A stretch of DNA of 9,195 nt from a virus (IMGVR_UViG_2698536387_000003); one strand, 5' to 3'; counted from the first letter of the stretch, positions 6,571 to 9,195 are shown. Numbers and translations are program-made. Notes: generated from the letters alone by a model not told the origin.

Positions 6571-8303
6571 TCACTCCTCCGGACAGCTTCGCTGCCAGTT
6601 CTTTCAGGGTTGGCCGGGTCGTCTCTTCTTCCCGGGATTTTGCCAGTACAGCCAGATCAAGCTGCCAGCGTTGCACGGACACACGTAATGCCGCGTAGGC
6701 ATACACCAGGCAGTCCAGCGCTTCGTTACGCCGCTTTTTGTTATCCCACAGCAGACGCATCTTTCCTTTTTCCCACTTCTCCACCAGCTCTTCCGCCACC
6801 AGTTGCTGCGCCTCTGTCTGCGAAAAAATCTCCGGATCATCAGGAAAACGGATGGCATACGACGTGGCTTCATCCGCAGGCGTGGGATCGGCTTTCATAC
6901 GGGCATAGAGAATTTCTTTTGCGGTGTCCGTTCCCACTTCACACAGATACACGCCCCGCTGATTGCGGGTTTTCGGCATGGTGATCACCGGCTTGCCATA
7001 GACAGACGCGCCTTTTACCGGCAGCACCCGGAAAACACCGTGTTTTTTTGATCTCTGATAAACAATTTCACCATCGATCCCCCCGGTGTCCCAGCAGACA
7101 CGGGAAATAGTCATTTCGGTGCCATCCGCATGGCGGTATTTTTTGTTGATCGCCGCATCCACACGTAACAGCGTCTCTTCCTCATCGGGACGCCCCATAA
7201 TGATGATTTTATCCACCAGAAAGGCTTCCTCTCCCGGTGCCCATCCCCAGACATACATCTCAAAACGGTTTCGCTGCGAGTCAATGCCCGCCGTCAGATA
7301 AACCACCCGGGCAGGCACCGCCGCCGTGTAACGCACCACCTTATCCATCAGTACCTGGTGATCGAGTTTTTCGCCCACGGCCTCTTCCCAGGTCTCGCCC
7401 AGCGTGGTGTTCACAAAGGTTTTCAGGCCGTTGGGATCTTTCAGTGCATCCAGCCAGTCATAGACAATCTGTACCCAGGTGGTGAACGGACTGTACGCCG
7501 TCCAGATATGGAACATGATGGAGCGCGGCGGCGGAATTTCATCACCCCGGGCGCTGAAAAACGTCAGACCGTCACGGGTCCACATGCCCGTGTTTTCACA
7601 GATCCACCGCCCGTTGCTCTGGTCCAGTTCAGACTGATGGATCACGCAGCCATGATGTTCACAGAGGTAGAAAACACTTTCAGGGCTGTCCTTCTCCCAT
7701 TTAAGCCCAAAAGGCGTGGACTCATCGCCAAATTTCAGATACTGCGCCTCCCCACAGTGCGGGCAGGGCACATAAAAACGCATAAAATGCGCCGACTCGT
7801 TAGCGGCTTTTTCGATCTGGCAGGTGCCTTTGATTTTAGGCGTCGAGCCGCGAATGGATTTTGGCCACACCGACCCCTCAATACGCTTATCCCCCAGCAG
7901 GGTTGGCGAGCCCTCTTTTTCGACATCCGGCTCGAACGAGGAAAGTTCGTCATAGCAGACCACGTCAACGGATTTTTCACGGTAGTTTTTGGCGGCAGCG
8001 CCGCCCAGGCACCAGAAACCGACGCCCGATGAAAAGCGTTTCAGCGTGAGAGTATTGTCACGATGTTTACGACCCAGCCATGGGGAAAGGTCTTTCAGGC
8101 ATGGCACGTTCCGAATCGTCGCCTCCACGTGAGACTTCATAAAATCTTCAGCGGCAGAATCCGTGGGCTGAAAAAGCAGACTGTTTCGGGATTTATGCTC
8201 AATAAAATACCCGACCACCCCCAGCAACATCTTTGTATAGCCAACACGGGCAGATTTAATCAGNNNNCATCATATTATTCAGTTGTTGCTCTGATATATT
8301 CAT
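6554..8303 (-). CDS. A: Terminase large subunit, lambda gpA homolog; interrupted by a 4-N run at 8264..8267 with about 60 codons apparently missing
   Basis: The 558-aa ORF (6554..8230) aligns with lambda gpA from its internal KMLLGVYAYFIEHK to the C-terminus (CPHCGE, FVNTTLGETWE, LTAGIDSQ, WDTGGID, GTDTAKE, KKRRNEALDC). Upstream of the N-run the same strand encodes LIKSARVGYTK, matching lambda VVKSARVGYSK. Beyond the N-run an ATG at 8303..8301 encodes MNISEQQLNNMM, matching the lambda gpA N-terminus MNISNSQVNRL. The two flanks are in different frames if the gap is exactly 4 nt. Confidence 0.9.
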
Positions 8304-8673
8304 CAAGTAAATCCGGTAATTTATCCCCTGCCCGCGCACACTGATTTGCCCCCTTAGCAATAAGGGTTTTCAGATGGTCAAGATGGCGCGGTGTTAAATC
8401 AGGAAACTGTCGCTGCATGGATAAAGGGATGGAATCAAGCGTACTGGATAACGCCATTGCCAGCTTACTGAGGGCAAAAATACAGAACCCGGTGTCAATN
8501 NNNNNCACATCGTTTTTACTTCTCCTCAGATACGATATGTAAAAATCGCGCCAGGCATCCAGATCCAGTTGCCCTCGCTTATTCGATATCGGGGCACCCG
8601 GCAATTTCTGCAATCTGCGAAGCTGGCGATCGGTCAGACTTAAATGCCTGGCAACTTCAGTCTGCGTAGCCAC
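8275..8673 (-). CDS. Nu1: Terminase small subunit, lambda gpNu1-like; GTG start; interrupted by a 6-N run at 8500..8505; N-terminal DNA-binding domain differs from lambda
   Basis: The C-terminal 74 aa (IDTGFCIFALSKLAMALSSTLDSIPLSMQRQFPDLTPRHLDHLK...LPDLLDEYI) match the lambda Nu1 C-terminus (VETAFCTFVLSRIAGEIASILDGLPLSVQRRFPELENRHVDFLK...IPGLLSEYI). The N-terminal 56 aa (MATQTEVARHLSLTDRQLRRLQKLPGAPISNKRGQ...) have an HTH-like pattern in the same position as lambda's but a different sequence. The start codon is GTG at 8673..8671 with a GAGGTGAGGA Shine-Dalgarno region immediately upstream. The product is about 50 aa shorter than the 181 aa I recall for lambda Nu1, consistent with missing sequence at the N-run. 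Confidence 0.82.
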   Translation of the reverse strand: MATQTEVARHLSLTDRQLRRLQKLPGAPISNKRGQLDLDAWRDFYISYLRRSKNDVXXIDTGFCIFALSKLAMALSSTLDSIPLSMQRQFPDLTPRHLDHLKTLIAKGANQCARAGDKLPDLLDEYIRATTE

Positions 8674-8720: not shown

Positions 8721-8819
8721 CATGTCCGGTTTACATGTCTGTTTTTTGTTCATGTCCGGTTCACAGAAGACCTGTTTTTATATTTTTCATATAGTTAACT
8801 TGAAGAGAAACCGGACATG
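8721..8819. repeat. Candidate cosB terminase-binding R elements: three exact copies of the 11-mer CATGTCCGGTT (two on plus, one on minus) flanking an AT-rich segment
   Basis: Exact 11-mers at 8721..8731 and 8751..8761 (plus strand) and 8809..8819 (minus strand), with an AT-rich stretch at about 8771..8805 between the second and third. The arrangement of repeats around an AT-rich bend site parallels lambda cosB (R3, I1, R2, R1), but the motif differs from the lambda R sequence (CGTTTCC-type). Confidence 0.6.
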
Positions 8820-8856
8820 GATCCCGGAAAATTTTCATAAATAGCGAAAACCCGCG

Positions 8857-8868
8857 AGGTCGCCGCCC
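8857..8868 (-). other. cosN cohesive-end sequence, identical to the lambda 12-nt sticky end GGGCGGCGACCT; the wider cos region spans roughly 8700..8900
   Basis: The minus strand at 8868..8857 reads GGGCGGCGACCT and is followed by CGCGGGTTTTCGCTATTTATGAAAATTTTCCGG, which is identical to the first 45 nt of the lambda genome left end as I recall it. The sequence on the other side of the nick (minus-strand ...TTCGTGGGTCCTTTCCGGCGATCCGACCGGTTACG) closely matches the lambda right end, where cosQ is expected. Confidence 0.9.
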
Positions 8869-8903
8869 CGTAACCGGTCGGATCGCCGGAAAGGACCCAC
8901 GAA

Positions 8904-8920
8904 ATGATAATAATTATCAT
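8904..8920. repeat. Perfect 17-bp palindrome ATGATAATAATTATCAT on the right-end side of cos
   Basis: Read directly from the sequence. The left arm atgataat is the reverse complement of the right arm attatcat, around a central a. It lies about 35-50 bp from the cosN nick, in the region whose lambda counterpart has a similar TGATAATGATTATCA element. Confidence 0.6.
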
Positions 8921-8981
8921 CTATATAAGGTTTATCACAACATGTGTGTACGCCATCAAACCACGAGAAATAATCAATTAT

Positions 8982-9012
8982 GACGCAGGTATCGTATTAA
9001 TTGATCTGCGTC
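8982..9012. promoter_or_regulatory. Inverted repeat GACGCAG-N17-CTGCGTC upstream of the ylcI-like ORF; candidate operator or protein-binding site
   Basis: 7-bp arms at 8982..8988 and 9006..9012 are perfect reverse complements, with AT-rich partially symmetric flanks (caattat / aaattaa). A possible -10 (gataat, 9036..9041) and weak -35 lie just downstream, ahead of the ATG at 9075. Confidence 0.4.
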
Positions 9013-9074
9013 AAATTAACGTAAAAGCAACTTCAGATAATACAAATCAGCAACACTGAATATGGGGAAACATT

Positions 9075-9195
9075 ATGTCATCAAAGAACAGAACCCGCAG
9101 AACAACAACCCGCAACATCCGATTTCCAAACCAGATGATTGAACAAATTAACATCGCTCTTGATCTGAAAGGTTCAGGTAATTTTTCAGCGTGGG
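9075..9195 (+). CDS. ylcI: Small YlcI-like (DUF3950) protein, putative DNA-binding; 3' end lies beyond the window
   Basis: The ATG at 9075 is preceded by GGGGA 6 nt upstream. Translation is MSSKNRTRRTTTRNIRFPNQMIEQINIALDLKGSGNFSAW..., which matches the 64-aa ORF I recall at the lambda right end and in DLP12-type prophages adjacent to the Nu1 homolog. Not in the ORF track because there is no stop within the window. Confidence 0.6.
   Translation, partial: MSSKNRTRRTTTRNIRFPNQMIEQINIALDLKGSGNFSAW

What the first reader, a model, noticed from the sequence alone, without database searches (positions are those of the whole stretch)
8904..9195. Small YlcI-like ORF diverging from cos, with palindromic elements upstream
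A conserved small basic protein (MSSKNRTRRTTTRNIRFPNQMIEQINIALDLKGSGNFSAW...) is encoded opposite to the head genes, immediately across cos. Upstream lie a perfect 17-bp palindrome (8904..8920) and a 7-bp inverted repeat with a 17-bp spacer (8982..9012) overlapping a putative promoter. A DNA-binding fold for this protein is my inference, not something the sequence proves. Its function and any role of these sites (autoregulation or cos-proximal packaging termination) are unknown.
Basis: partly seen in the sequence, partly recalled or inferred. Interest (0 to 1): 0.5.

Follow-up and report, generated by a model that had tools for sequence, protein, structure and literature searches.

The report
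Fur box beside lambda-type cos
The 17-bp palindrome is a binding site for Fur, the host iron regulator, already shown to bind Fur in E. coli K-12 prophages; it travels with the phage DNA-packaging site (cos) rather than with the small gene next to it, a conserved gene of unknown function that phage lambda also carries unannotated.

Summary
The window is a lambdoid prophage of E. coli O157:H7. Its order is terminase small subunit, cosB repeats, cosN (8857-8868), cosQ (8892-8898), palindrome (8904-8920), a 150-bp leader, then a DUF3950/YlcI-YnfO gene (9075 onward; 74 aa in the source genome).

The palindrome is a perfect Fur 7-1-7 box. It is identical 17/17 to the DLP12 'nohB' site, the third strongest predicted Fur cluster in K-12. 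It is homologous to the Qin 'nohA' site, which Fur gel-shifts and which was captured in vivo. A variant in CFT073 lies under a Fur ChIP-exo peak.

Among 131 lambda-type cos sites, 14 of 19 flank families keep the box 4-8 nt from cosQ. These include lambda, phi80 and N15, and several have no ylcI. ylcI copies in HK97-type Stx phages have no box. So the box goes with cos, not with the gene, and it is not a YlcI operator. Isolated phages that lack it show it is not essential for cos.

Purifying selection shows the ORF is real. An Arc/Mnt-like ribbon-helix-helix fold is plausible but unproven. The second repeat lies in a strongly conserved leader of unknown role. Most of this is already known; the constant cos-Fur box linkage may not have been described.

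The parts
8164..8673 (-). Terminase small subunit gene (Nu1/NohA-like). Its start codon lies about 239 bp from the centre of the Fur box.
   Evidence: RefSeq annotation of the 100% identical locus: L003 5491-6000 equals window 8164-8673. ORF list.
8721..8819 (.). cosB-like region with three copies of CATGTCCGGTTT: 8721-8732 and 8751-8762 direct, 8808-8819 inverted. These are presumed TerS binding sites (R1-R3).
   Evidence: D1, I2, I4. The arrangement matches the R3/R2/R1 layout described for lambda-like cosB (PMC4669245). That these repeats are R sites is my inference.
8857..8868 (.). cosN 12-nt cohesive-end sequence. It reads aggtcgccgccc on the + strand, which is GGGCGGCGACCT on the - strand.
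   Evidence: Identical to the annotated 12-nt sticky end of phi80 (L009 1-12). Directly precedes the lambda right-end sequence cgtaac.
8892..8898 (.). cosQ, the packaging-termination subsite. It reads AGGACCC, which is GGGTCCT on the lambda l-strand.
   Evidence: Same 7-mer as the feature annotated cosQ in phage 434. The lambda copy lies at 48473-48479. Described as a highly conserved 7-bp site in PMC4669245.
8904..8920 (.). Fur box. It is a perfect 8-1-8 palindrome whose core, 8905-8919 TGATAATAATTATCA, is the Fur 7-1-7 motif. It also holds GATAAT-N-ATTATC.
   Evidence: Identical 17/17 to the DLP12 site, listed as 'nohB', 25.3 bits, in Chen et al. 2007. Homologous to the Qin 'nohA' site, whose centre maps to the published coordinate 1634624; Fur gel-shifts that site. 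A CFT073 variant lies under a Fur ChIP-exo peak. Kept in 14 of 19 flank families.
8953..9074 (+). Strongly conserved non-coding leader of the ylcI-type locus, with GGGG at 9064-9067 as the likely ribosome-binding site. No function has been shown.
   Evidence: Diversity is 0.048 for the leader and 0.024 for 8973-9013, against 0.18 at ORF third codon positions and 0.11 in 8921-8952. Alignment of 42 unique variants.
8973..9013 (.). Two interleaved perfect 8-bp inverted repeats with identical 17-nt spacers: ATCAATTA (8973-8980) with TAATTGAT (8998-9005), and TGACGCAG (8981-8988) with CTGCGTCA (9006-9013).
   Evidence: Most relatives, lambda included, have CTGCATCA, a 7/8 match.
9075..9195 (+). 5' part (40 codons) of a 74-aa DUF3950/YlcI-YnfO family gene. 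The full ORF is L003 6402-6626.
   Evidence: Purifying selection. The lambda homologue is complement(48109..48303) and is unannotated.

Best explanation
Two separate things sit side by side.

(A) The Fur box. The 17-bp palindrome is a high-affinity operator for Fur, the host iron-sensing repressor, which binds as Fe2+-loaded dimers. It belongs to the lambda-type cos module. It lies 5 bp beyond cosQ, and homology between otherwise unrelated lambdoid phages ends right after it. Shown: the sequence match; Fur binding to the homologous K-12 site in vitro and in Fur-titration screens; and Fur occupancy in CFT073, with 4- to 8-fold derepression of the transcription units on both sides in a fur mutant. 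Inferred: in this O157 prophage Fur sits on the site when iron is plentiful and dampens transcription that starts near it or crosses it. That transcription runs rightward into ylcI and the other lysogen-expressed accessory genes ('morons'), and leftward across cos into the terminase operon. The output depends on context.

(B) The ORF. It is a genuine small gene of the DUF3950/YlcI-YnfO family. It lies antisense to the late operon, as prophage accessory and regulatory genes usually do. It most likely encodes an Arc/Mnt-like ribbon-helix-helix DNA-binding protein that acts as a dimer (inferred). The conserved leader with the two interleaved inverted repeats most likely holds its promoter and operator (weakly inferred).
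For: Fur box identity:
- Perfect match to TGATAATNATTATCA, with 0.03 expected by chance.
- 17/17 identity to the DLP12 site. Chen et al. 2007 list that site as nohB, 25.3 bits, third strongest cluster in K-12, and cite the 1994 Fur-titration study for it.
- The Qin site centre at L004 1301 equals their coordinate 1634624. It scored 22.3 bits, was gel-shifted by 150 nM Fur, and was also selected in vivo by Vassinova and Kozyrev.
- CFT073 ChIP-exo peak P53 (1424699-1424711) overlaps CGAGAATAATTATCA, 5 nt from cosQ. It lies 221-233 bp upstream of the terminase small subunit gene. Genes in both flanking units rise by log2 2.1 to 2.9 in the fur mutant.

Linkage to cos, not to ylcI:
- 14 of 19 flank families keep the box.
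- ylcI occurs without the box.

ORF is real.

Ribbon-helix-helix indications:
- AlphaFold core pLDDT is 73-83, with two helices joined by a G-x-x-N turn.
- HHalign places the family in register with Arc, Mnt and CopG. The best result is P=4e-4 against an Arc-family profile.
- A weak PHROG match to HicB-like proteins, E=0.012.
- In Proteus islands that resemble phage-inducible chromosomal islands (PICIs), the family member is the lone opposite-strand gene between alpA and a primase operon. That is a regulator-like position.

Leader constraint.
Against: Regulatory output of the Fur box:
- In MG1655 a fur deletion changes none of nohA, ydfO, nohD or ybcV. All are nearly silent.
- In W3110 ynfO, ydfO, ylcI, ybcV and ybcW go down, not up, on very low counts.
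- No K-12 or Sakai ChIP-exo peak is listed at these sites. Multi-mapping of repeated prophage sequence could hide them.
- The leftward promoter-like site whose -10 lies in the Fur box is no better than shuffled flanks give, across 15 contexts: mean score 7.31 against 7.14.
- The NCM3722 iron data for the noh genes are confounded, because a whole prophage block moves together.

Fold of the protein:
- No Pfam ribbon-helix-helix family is hit. HHalign probability is only 34%.

Leader as operator:
- ylcI copies with the same NIRFP strand in HK97-type phages have no copy of the repeat half-sites within 700 bp.
- No consensus promoter was found on the + strand.
Confidence: 0.72

Rival explanations
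1. The palindrome is a working part of cos. A protein bound there (Fur or terminase) slows or positions the packaging motor, which arrives from the ylcI side, about 17 bp before cosQ. That would help termination and cosN nicking, or it would couple packaging or terminase supply to iron status.
For: The box is kept 4-8 nt from cosQ in 14 of 19 flank families, and homology between phages stops just beyond it. Its diversity is as low as that of cosN-cosQ. In MG1655 the site has no visible transcriptional output, which leaves room for a role outside transcription.
Against: Phages isolated as virions (4A7, 2B8) and 5 of 19 flank families have cosN and cosQ but no palindrome. Published work defines cosQ as a 7-bp site. 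The spacing to cosQ varies by 4 nt. fur does not appear in the main text of the genome-wide lambda host-dependency screen. The close linkage could be hitchhiking within a 30-bp stretch.
Confidence: 0.12
2. One reading: the palindrome, the downstream inverted repeat, or both are operators for the YlcI-like protein itself (autoregulation).
For: Ribbon-helix-helix regulators commonly repress their own promoters through inverted or tandem repeats (established knowledge). The repeat region 8973-9013 is nearly invariant among ylcI-type loci and repeat-rich beyond chance.
Against: For the palindrome, it is present without ylcI, and ylcI is present without it. It is also already accounted for by Fur. 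For the repeat, most relatives have 7/8, and the half-sites are absent near ylcI in HK97-type phages although the predicted DNA-reading strand is the same.
Confidence: 0.2
3. The Fur box has no selected function in this prophage. It persists because it lies within about 25 bp of the essential cosQ/cosN and is copied along with them; at most it is a neutral Fur decoy.
For: There is no expression change in MG1655. It is lost in 5 of 19 flank families with no evident harm to the phage. Many of the flank families may share a gp59-like gene, so there are fewer independent contexts than the count suggests.
Against: The variable positions are the ones Fur tolerates (the centre base and the outermost pair), while GATAAT is almost invariant across contexts. 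The 5-nt spacer between cosQ and the box is far more variable, with diversity 0.20 against 0.03. That argues against simple linkage. CFT073 shows real occupancy and regulation.
Confidence: 0.18
4. The conserved leader and its repeats act as RNA: a structured 5' UTR of ylcI, or a processing or pause site in the late transcript read from the opposite strand.
For: Strong conservation of 8953-9013. The common variants of the TGACGCAG/CTGCGTCA repeat would still form G-U pairs in a minus-strand RNA (my reading).
Against: No Rfam match at E up to 1. Folding energies are ordinary on both strands, with z of -0.67 and -0.84. The two repeats are interleaved (A B A' B') with no loop nucleotides, so both helices cannot form at once. 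There are too few substitutions to test covariation.
Confidence: 0.08

Closest known systems
Fur binding sites upstream of nohA (Qin) and nohB/nohD (DLP12) in E. coli K-12 (Stojiljkovic 1994 Fur-titration assay; Vassinova & Kozyrev 2000; Chen, Schneider et al. 2007, PMC2189734)
   Same: They occupy the homologous position: 5-6 bp beyond cosQ, about 233 bp upstream of the Nu1-like gene, and upstream of ylcI/ynfO. The DLP12 palindrome is identical 17/17. The Qin site differs at the centre base and at the outermost pair of the 17-bp palindrome.
   Different: Those papers assigned the site to the noh genes, because ylcI and ynfO were not yet annotated. In the text I could read, they did not link it to cos or to lambda itself. 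Here the site sits in an apparently intact O157 prophage rather than in a cryptic remnant.
Fur ChIP-exo peak P53 in the E. coli CFT073 prophage (Gao et al. 2023, PMC10164565)
   Same: It has the same cos-proximal position and the same right arm of the palindrome. Fur occupies it in vivo, and both flanking transcription units are derepressed in the fur mutant.
   Different: The left arm is GAGAAT, not GATAAT. The neighbouring genes are a lipoprotein-like ORF and a TonB-family gene, not ylcI.
Lambda cos (cosB-cosN-cosQ) as defined by the Feiss laboratory
   Same: cosN and cosQ are identical or nearly so and stand in the same order and spacing. Lambda carries the same palindrome at 48452-48466 and the same ORF at complement(48109..48303).
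   Different: The cosB repeats differ from lambda's, and homology to lambda starts only near 8824. The palindrome is not part of cos as defined in the papers I could read.
Arc and Mnt repressors of phage P22 (Pfam PF03869, ribbon-helix-helix)
   Same: They are small, basic phage proteins. The N-terminal motif N-[IL]-R-[FW]-P is followed by helix, G-containing turn and helix, and HHalign aligns it in register. The predicted secondary structure fits.
   Different: There is no significant sequence-family or structure-search match. The operator, the oligomeric state and any repressor activity are unknown.
Prophage 'moron' genes expressed from the lysogen (bor, lom) between the lysis genes and cos
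   Same: It has the same genomic slot and the same orientation against the late operon. In lambda the ORF lies just upstream of lambdap78 and bor on the same strand.
   Different: I found no expression data for the ylcI-type gene in a lysogen, and no phenotype is known.

Membership tests
Fur operator (E. coli Fur regulon) | Match to the Fur box consensus (7-1-7 TGATAATnATTATCA; 6-1-6 GATAAT-n-ATTATC; 19-bp GATAATGATAATCATTATC) | tested here: met
   14 of 14 specified positions of the 7-1-7 motif at 8905-8919. By hand, 15 of 19 to the 19-bp consensus. The consensus strings themselves come from my own knowledge of the Fur literature.
Fur operator (E. coli Fur regulon) | Fur protein binds the site in vitro | not testable with these tools
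   Not tested for this exact DNA. The homologous Qin site was gel-shifted by 150 nM Fur (PMC2189734). The DLP12 site, identical 17/17, scored 25.3 bits in the same model.
Fur operator (E. coli Fur regulon) | Fur occupies the site in vivo | tested here: inconclusive
   A CFT073 variant lies exactly under a ChIP-exo peak. No peak is listed at the K-12 or Sakai copies, possibly because repeated prophage sequence hinders read mapping.
Fur operator (E. coli Fur regulon) | Neighbouring genes respond to fur deletion or to iron | tested here: inconclusive
   CFT073: log2 +2.1 to +2.9 on both sides. MG1655: no change. W3110: decrease on low counts. NCM3722: noh genes are iron-repressed, but the result is confounded.
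DUF3950 / YlcI-YnfO family | Score above the curated cut-off of the family models | tested here: met
   Pfam PF13132 scores 66.6 bits against a cut-off of 25. NCBIfam NF041551 scores 34.6 bits against 30. phrog_949 gives E=1.7e-31.
Ribbon-helix-helix superfamily (Arc/Mnt/CopG type) | Beta-strand, helix A, G-x-(S/T/N) turn and helix B topology | tested here: inconclusive
   AlphaFold gives helix 19-32, turn GSGN 33-36 and helix 37-55, with residues 11-18 extended. Core pLDDT is 73-83. In this fold the strand forms only in the dimer, and a dimer could not be modelled here.
Ribbon-helix-helix superfamily (Arc/Mnt/CopG type) | Detectable homology or structural similarity to known members | tested here: inconclusive
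Ribbon-helix-helix superfamily (Arc/Mnt/CopG type) | Dimeric, sequence-specific DNA binding | not testable with these tools
   This needs biochemistry.
Lambda-type cohesive-end site (cos) | cosN 12-mer, cosQ 7-mer at the canonical distance, and cosB repeats next to the small terminase gene | tested here: met
   cosN at 8857-8868 equals the annotated phi80 end. cosQ AGGACCC lies at 8892-8898. Three R-like repeats lie at 8721-8819. The terminase genes are adjacent.
Lambda-type cohesive-end site (cos) | The palindrome is a required part of cos | tested here: not met
   It is absent from the isolated phages 4A7 and 2B8 and from 5 of 19 flank families that keep cosN and cosQ.

The most novel reading that the evidence does not exclude
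Host iron status, read through Fur, may be wired into the lambda-type cos region. A Fur dimer bound about 17 bp ahead of cosQ would meet the incoming packaging motor, or read-through transcription, just before the termination signal. It could then modulate packaging termination or terminase supply in lambda, phi80, N15 and their many prophage relatives. This would add a host-factor site to one of the best-studied DNA packaging signals. A secondary novel reading is that YlcI-family proteins are packaging-linked DNA-binding factors. They sit next to terminase genes of two unrelated types, and in some satellite-like elements they are fused to a small-terminase DNA-binding domain.
Probability: 0.1. 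Interest if true: 0.7.

Novelty: new member of a known kind. Interest (0 to 1): 0.38.

Why it matters
What is new for this window is modest. It turns an 'unknown palindrome' into a documented Fur operator, and it shows the small ORF to be a widespread gene that the reference record of lambda itself still leaves unannotated.

The comparative result is more useful. One of the strongest Fur sites in E. coli genomes is a near-constant neighbour of cosQ across lambdoid phages, whatever gene lies beyond it. Two practical points follow.
- Fur-regulon studies that assign these peaks to 'noh' genes are looking at a phage packaging region.
- O157 and other strains with many prophages carry several copies of a high-affinity Fur site, which may titrate Fur or tie prophage accessory genes to iron.

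Whether the site matters for the phage is open and easy to test in lambda.

Tried and rejected
1. Leftward sigma-70 promoter with its -10 inside the Fur box (TTGTGA-16-GATAAT). Across 15 contexts the -35 elements score no better than shuffled flanks. I rejected it as a conserved feature; the -10-like hexamers are intrinsic to the Fur box.
2. A + strand promoter for ylcI. None appeared at the consensus threshold. Only weak and inconsistent candidates came up.
3. Structured RNA. No Rfam hit and ordinary folding energies on both strands.
4. ORFs that start at the ATG/CAT of the palindrome (8904..9059 + and 8795..8920 -). A 7-bp indel in relatives breaks the frame, so they are spurious.
6. Sequence bridges to ribbon-helix-helix families. 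A profile search against PDB, Pfam scans of 22 members and a profile search of the large protein database returned only DUF3950 or noise.
7. A tblastn hit in Pasteurella phage Pmp7. It lies on the strand opposite an annotated repressor and is probably spurious.
8. Sakai Fur peaks near ECs0835 and ECs1988. They lie inside tape-measure genes and are unrelated to cos.
9. Literature on a Fur box at lambda cos, on phi80 and Fur, and on ylcI/ynfO function. I found nothing specific in the held library. Seo 2014 and McHugh 2003 are not held.
10. PADLOC defence models gave only a negligible hit.

Full report
**What the window is.** The minus strand carries lambda-like head genes: decoration protein, protease, portal, head-tail joining protein and the large and small terminase subunits. 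Window 8674-9195 matches E. coli O157:H7 strain 493/89 at 100%. Related sequence occurs in 4582 of 5426 complete E. coli genomes, with a median of two places per genome. Read on the + strand, the region runs as follows:
- small terminase start codon at 8673;
- three CATGTCCGGTTT repeats, cosB-like (8721-8819);
- the 12-nt cohesive end cosN (8857-8868, identical to the annotated phi80 end);
- cosQ, AGGACCC (8892-8898; annotated as cosQ in phage 434; lambda 48473-48479);
- the palindrome (8904-8920);
- a 154-bp non-coding stretch;
- the ORF, starting at 9075.

**Check of the observation.** The palindrome is perfect (8+1+8). The second repeat exists but has 8-bp arms: 8981-8988 and 9006-9013. It is interleaved with another perfect 8-bp repeat of the same 17-nt spacing, 8973-8980 and 8998-9005. 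Three such repeats in 176 bp compare with 0.13 expected, and 0.9% of shuffles reach three. The ORF starts at 9075. Its full product is 74 aa: MSSKNRTRRTTTRNIRFPNQMIEQINIALDLKGSGNFSAWVIEACRRRLINEKYSQFVPNKDKHDQSTCSDRFT.

**The palindrome is a Fur box.** Its core TGATAATAATTATCA matches the Fur 7-1-7 motif at every specified position. There is one hit in the window against 0.03 expected. I recalled the motif itself from the Fur literature. The test is the mapping onto published sites.
- Chen, Schneider and co-workers (PMC2189734) list 'nohB' (25.3 bits, third strongest Fur cluster in K-12) and 'nohA' (22.3 bits at coordinate 1634624). Their nohA oligonucleotide was shifted by 150 nM Fur. The same fragment had been selected in vivo by Vassinova and Kozyrev, and for nohB they cite the 1994 Fur-titration study.
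- I fetched both K-12 loci. The published nohA coordinate falls on the centre base of the Qin palindrome TGATAATGATTATCA.
- The DLP12 palindrome ATGATAATAATTATCAT is identical to the window's at all 17 positions.
- Both lie 5-6 bp beyond a cosQ 7-mer and upstream of ynfO or ylcI. Those genes were not annotated when the papers were written.
- In CFT073, the Fur ChIP-exo peak P53 of Gao et al. (PMC10164565) lies at 1424699-1424711. That maps onto CGAGAATAATTATCA, 5 nt from cosQ and 221-233 bp upstream of the small terminase gene. Genes in both flanking transcription units rise by log2 2.1-2.9 in the fur mutant.

**The box belongs with cos, not with ylcI.** A blastn search showed several phages whose homology to the window ends at 8918-8920, the far edge of the palindrome. 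phi80, N15, mEp237 and an Stx1 phage all have cosN, cosQ and the palindrome, followed by unrelated sequence and no ylcI. I then scanned IMG/VR for the cosN-cosQ signature. Together with the loci already fetched, this gave 131 sites.
- They fall into 19 families by the sequence beyond the palindrome.
- Fourteen families have a Fur-like palindrome (at most 3 of 14 mismatches) 4-8 nt after cosQ; five do not.
- Some of the families probably share a diverged gp59-like gene, so the number of truly independent contexts is lower.
- Among the variants, GATAAT in the left arm is almost invariant. The centre base is free (A, G or T). The outermost pair changes together in N15 (C...G for T...A).
- Within ylcI-type loci, the 5-nt spacer between cosQ and the box is much more variable than the box (diversity 0.20 against 0.03). 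That argues against pure hitchhiking.

Conversely, ylcI homologues in Stx phages with HK97-type terminases sit 41 bp from an HNH endonuclease gene. They have no Fur box and no leader repeats within 700 bp. The isolated phages 4A7 and 2B8 have cosN and cosQ but no palindrome, so the box is not an obligatory part of cos. Lambda itself has the box at 48452-48466.

**What Fur does there is less clear.**
- CFT073 gives clean repression on both sides.
- In MG1655 nohA, ydfO, nohD and ybcV are almost silent and unchanged in the fur mutant.
- In W3110 ynfO, ydfO, ylcI, ybcV and ybcW fall rather than rise, on counts below 30.
- In NCM3722 the noh genes are lower with iron, as the ent and suf genes are. 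A whole lambda-like gene block moves with them, however, so prophage induction and cross-mapping cannot be excluded.
- The consensus scan found one promoter-like site, on the minus strand, with its -10 (GATAAT) inside the box and pointing at cos. Across 15 contexts such pairings score no better than with shuffled flanks. I therefore do not claim that promoter.

My reading is that Fur binding is shown and repression depends on context. The selective reason for keeping the box beside cosQ remains open.

**The ORF.** It belongs to Pfam DUF3950 and NCBIfam YlcI_YnfO_N. The family is narrow: 100 cluster representatives at E<=0.001 among 1.84 billion proteins. All named members are from Enterobacterales. 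Third-codon-position diversity is 0.18, against 0.05 and 0.03 at positions 1 and 2, so the protein is under purifying selection. Lambda encodes a 64-aa homologue at complement(48109..48303), and neither J02459 nor NC_001416 annotates it.

The conserved core is K-x-I-R-F-P, then helix, G-x-x-N-F-S-A-W-V, then helix. AlphaFold with 36 sequences gives helices 19-32 and 37-55 with core pLDDT 73-83. HHalign places NIRFP on the NLRWP strand of Arc, NFRMP of Mnt and ITLS of CopG. The best result is P=4e-4 and probability 34% against an Arc-family profile. Structure searches and Pfam gave no support. A ribbon-helix-helix fold is therefore the best guess and is not demonstrated.

Context adds hints.
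- Two distant members fuse the domain to a small-terminase (Terminase_2) DNA-binding region.
- In Proteus and other islands that resemble phage-inducible chromosomal islands (PICIs), the gene is the lone opposite-strand gene between alpA, or the integrase gene, and a primase operon.
- In phages it sits next to terminase genes of two unrelated types.

**The leader.** Positions 8953-9013 are almost invariant among 67 unique ylcI-type loci. Diversity is 0.024 for 8973-9013. That is as constrained as the non-synonymous positions of the gene. This stretch holds the two interleaved repeats. I found no convincing promoter, no Rfam family and no unusual RNA stability. A promoter/operator role is the default guess. 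It is weakened because ylcI exists without this leader elsewhere.

**Verdict.** The palindrome is a known kind of site, and its direct homologues are already in the Fur literature. The gene is a known family of unknown function. The comparative finding that a strong Fur box is a near-constant neighbour of cosQ, in lambda too, is something I could not find stated in the held literature. It is cheap to test and of moderate interest.

Noticed in passing
window 8501-8506: A run of six N interrupts the terminase gene region, so the large and small terminase ORFs are not listed intact in the window.
   Followed up: no
window 8721-8732, 8751-8762, 8808-8819: There are three copies of CATGTCCGGTTT, two direct and one inverted, between the small terminase gene and cosN. 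They are likely cosB R sites with a packaging specificity different from lambda's. Homology to lambda begins only near 8824.
   Followed up: partly
lambda NC_001416 complement(48109..48303); L145 1710-1904: Phage lambda encodes a 64-aa YlcI/YnfO homologue next to cos. The reference records J02459 and NC_001416 do not annotate it.
   Followed up: yes
P0188, P0208; L143 4001-4390: Two distant family members fuse the DUF3950 domain to a Terminase_2 (small terminase) DNA-binding region. One lies between an integrase gene and a primase gene in a small satellite-like element.
   Followed up: partly
L139-L141 4001-4183; L140 3844-3858 and 3962-3978: In Proteus mirabilis, in islands that resemble phage-inducible chromosomal islands (PICIs), the DUF3950 gene is the only gene on its strand, between alpA and a primase operon. 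The motif ATAGTGTTCCTA occurs twice upstream of it.
   Followed up: no
L003 6708-7022 (just beyond the window's right end): In the source genome a PerC-family transcriptional regulator gene converges on the ylcI-like gene.
   Followed up: no
L136 1155-1870 (CFT073); L015 (phage ev017); L007 2833-3159 (phage JLK-2012): TonB-family protein genes and a small lipoprotein-like ORF occupy the slot beside the cos-proximal Fur box in CFT073 and ev017. A TonB-family gene also lies next to ylcI in JLK-2012. These are iron-related cargo beside an iron-responsive site.
   Followed up: no
L144 152-165 and 227-240 (phage 434); about window 9027-9040: The curated phage 434 record marks matches to the CII consensus TTGYN6TTGY on the minus strand of the leader and inside the ORF. 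The window has TTAT in place of TTGT at the leader site, so that match is not conserved.
   Followed up: partly
window about 8925-8932: A 7-bp insertion/deletion separates two lineages of the stretch between the Fur box and the conserved leader. The window has the longer form (TATAAGGTTTATCAC); lambda and DLP12 have the shorter one.
   Followed up: no
supplement of PMC10164565 (W3110 versus MG1655): In W3110 the genes on the ylcI/ynfO side and appY are far more expressed than in MG1655, and they fall in the fur mutant. This may reflect strain background, or it may reflect Fur countering silencing of these prophage genes.
   Followed up: partly
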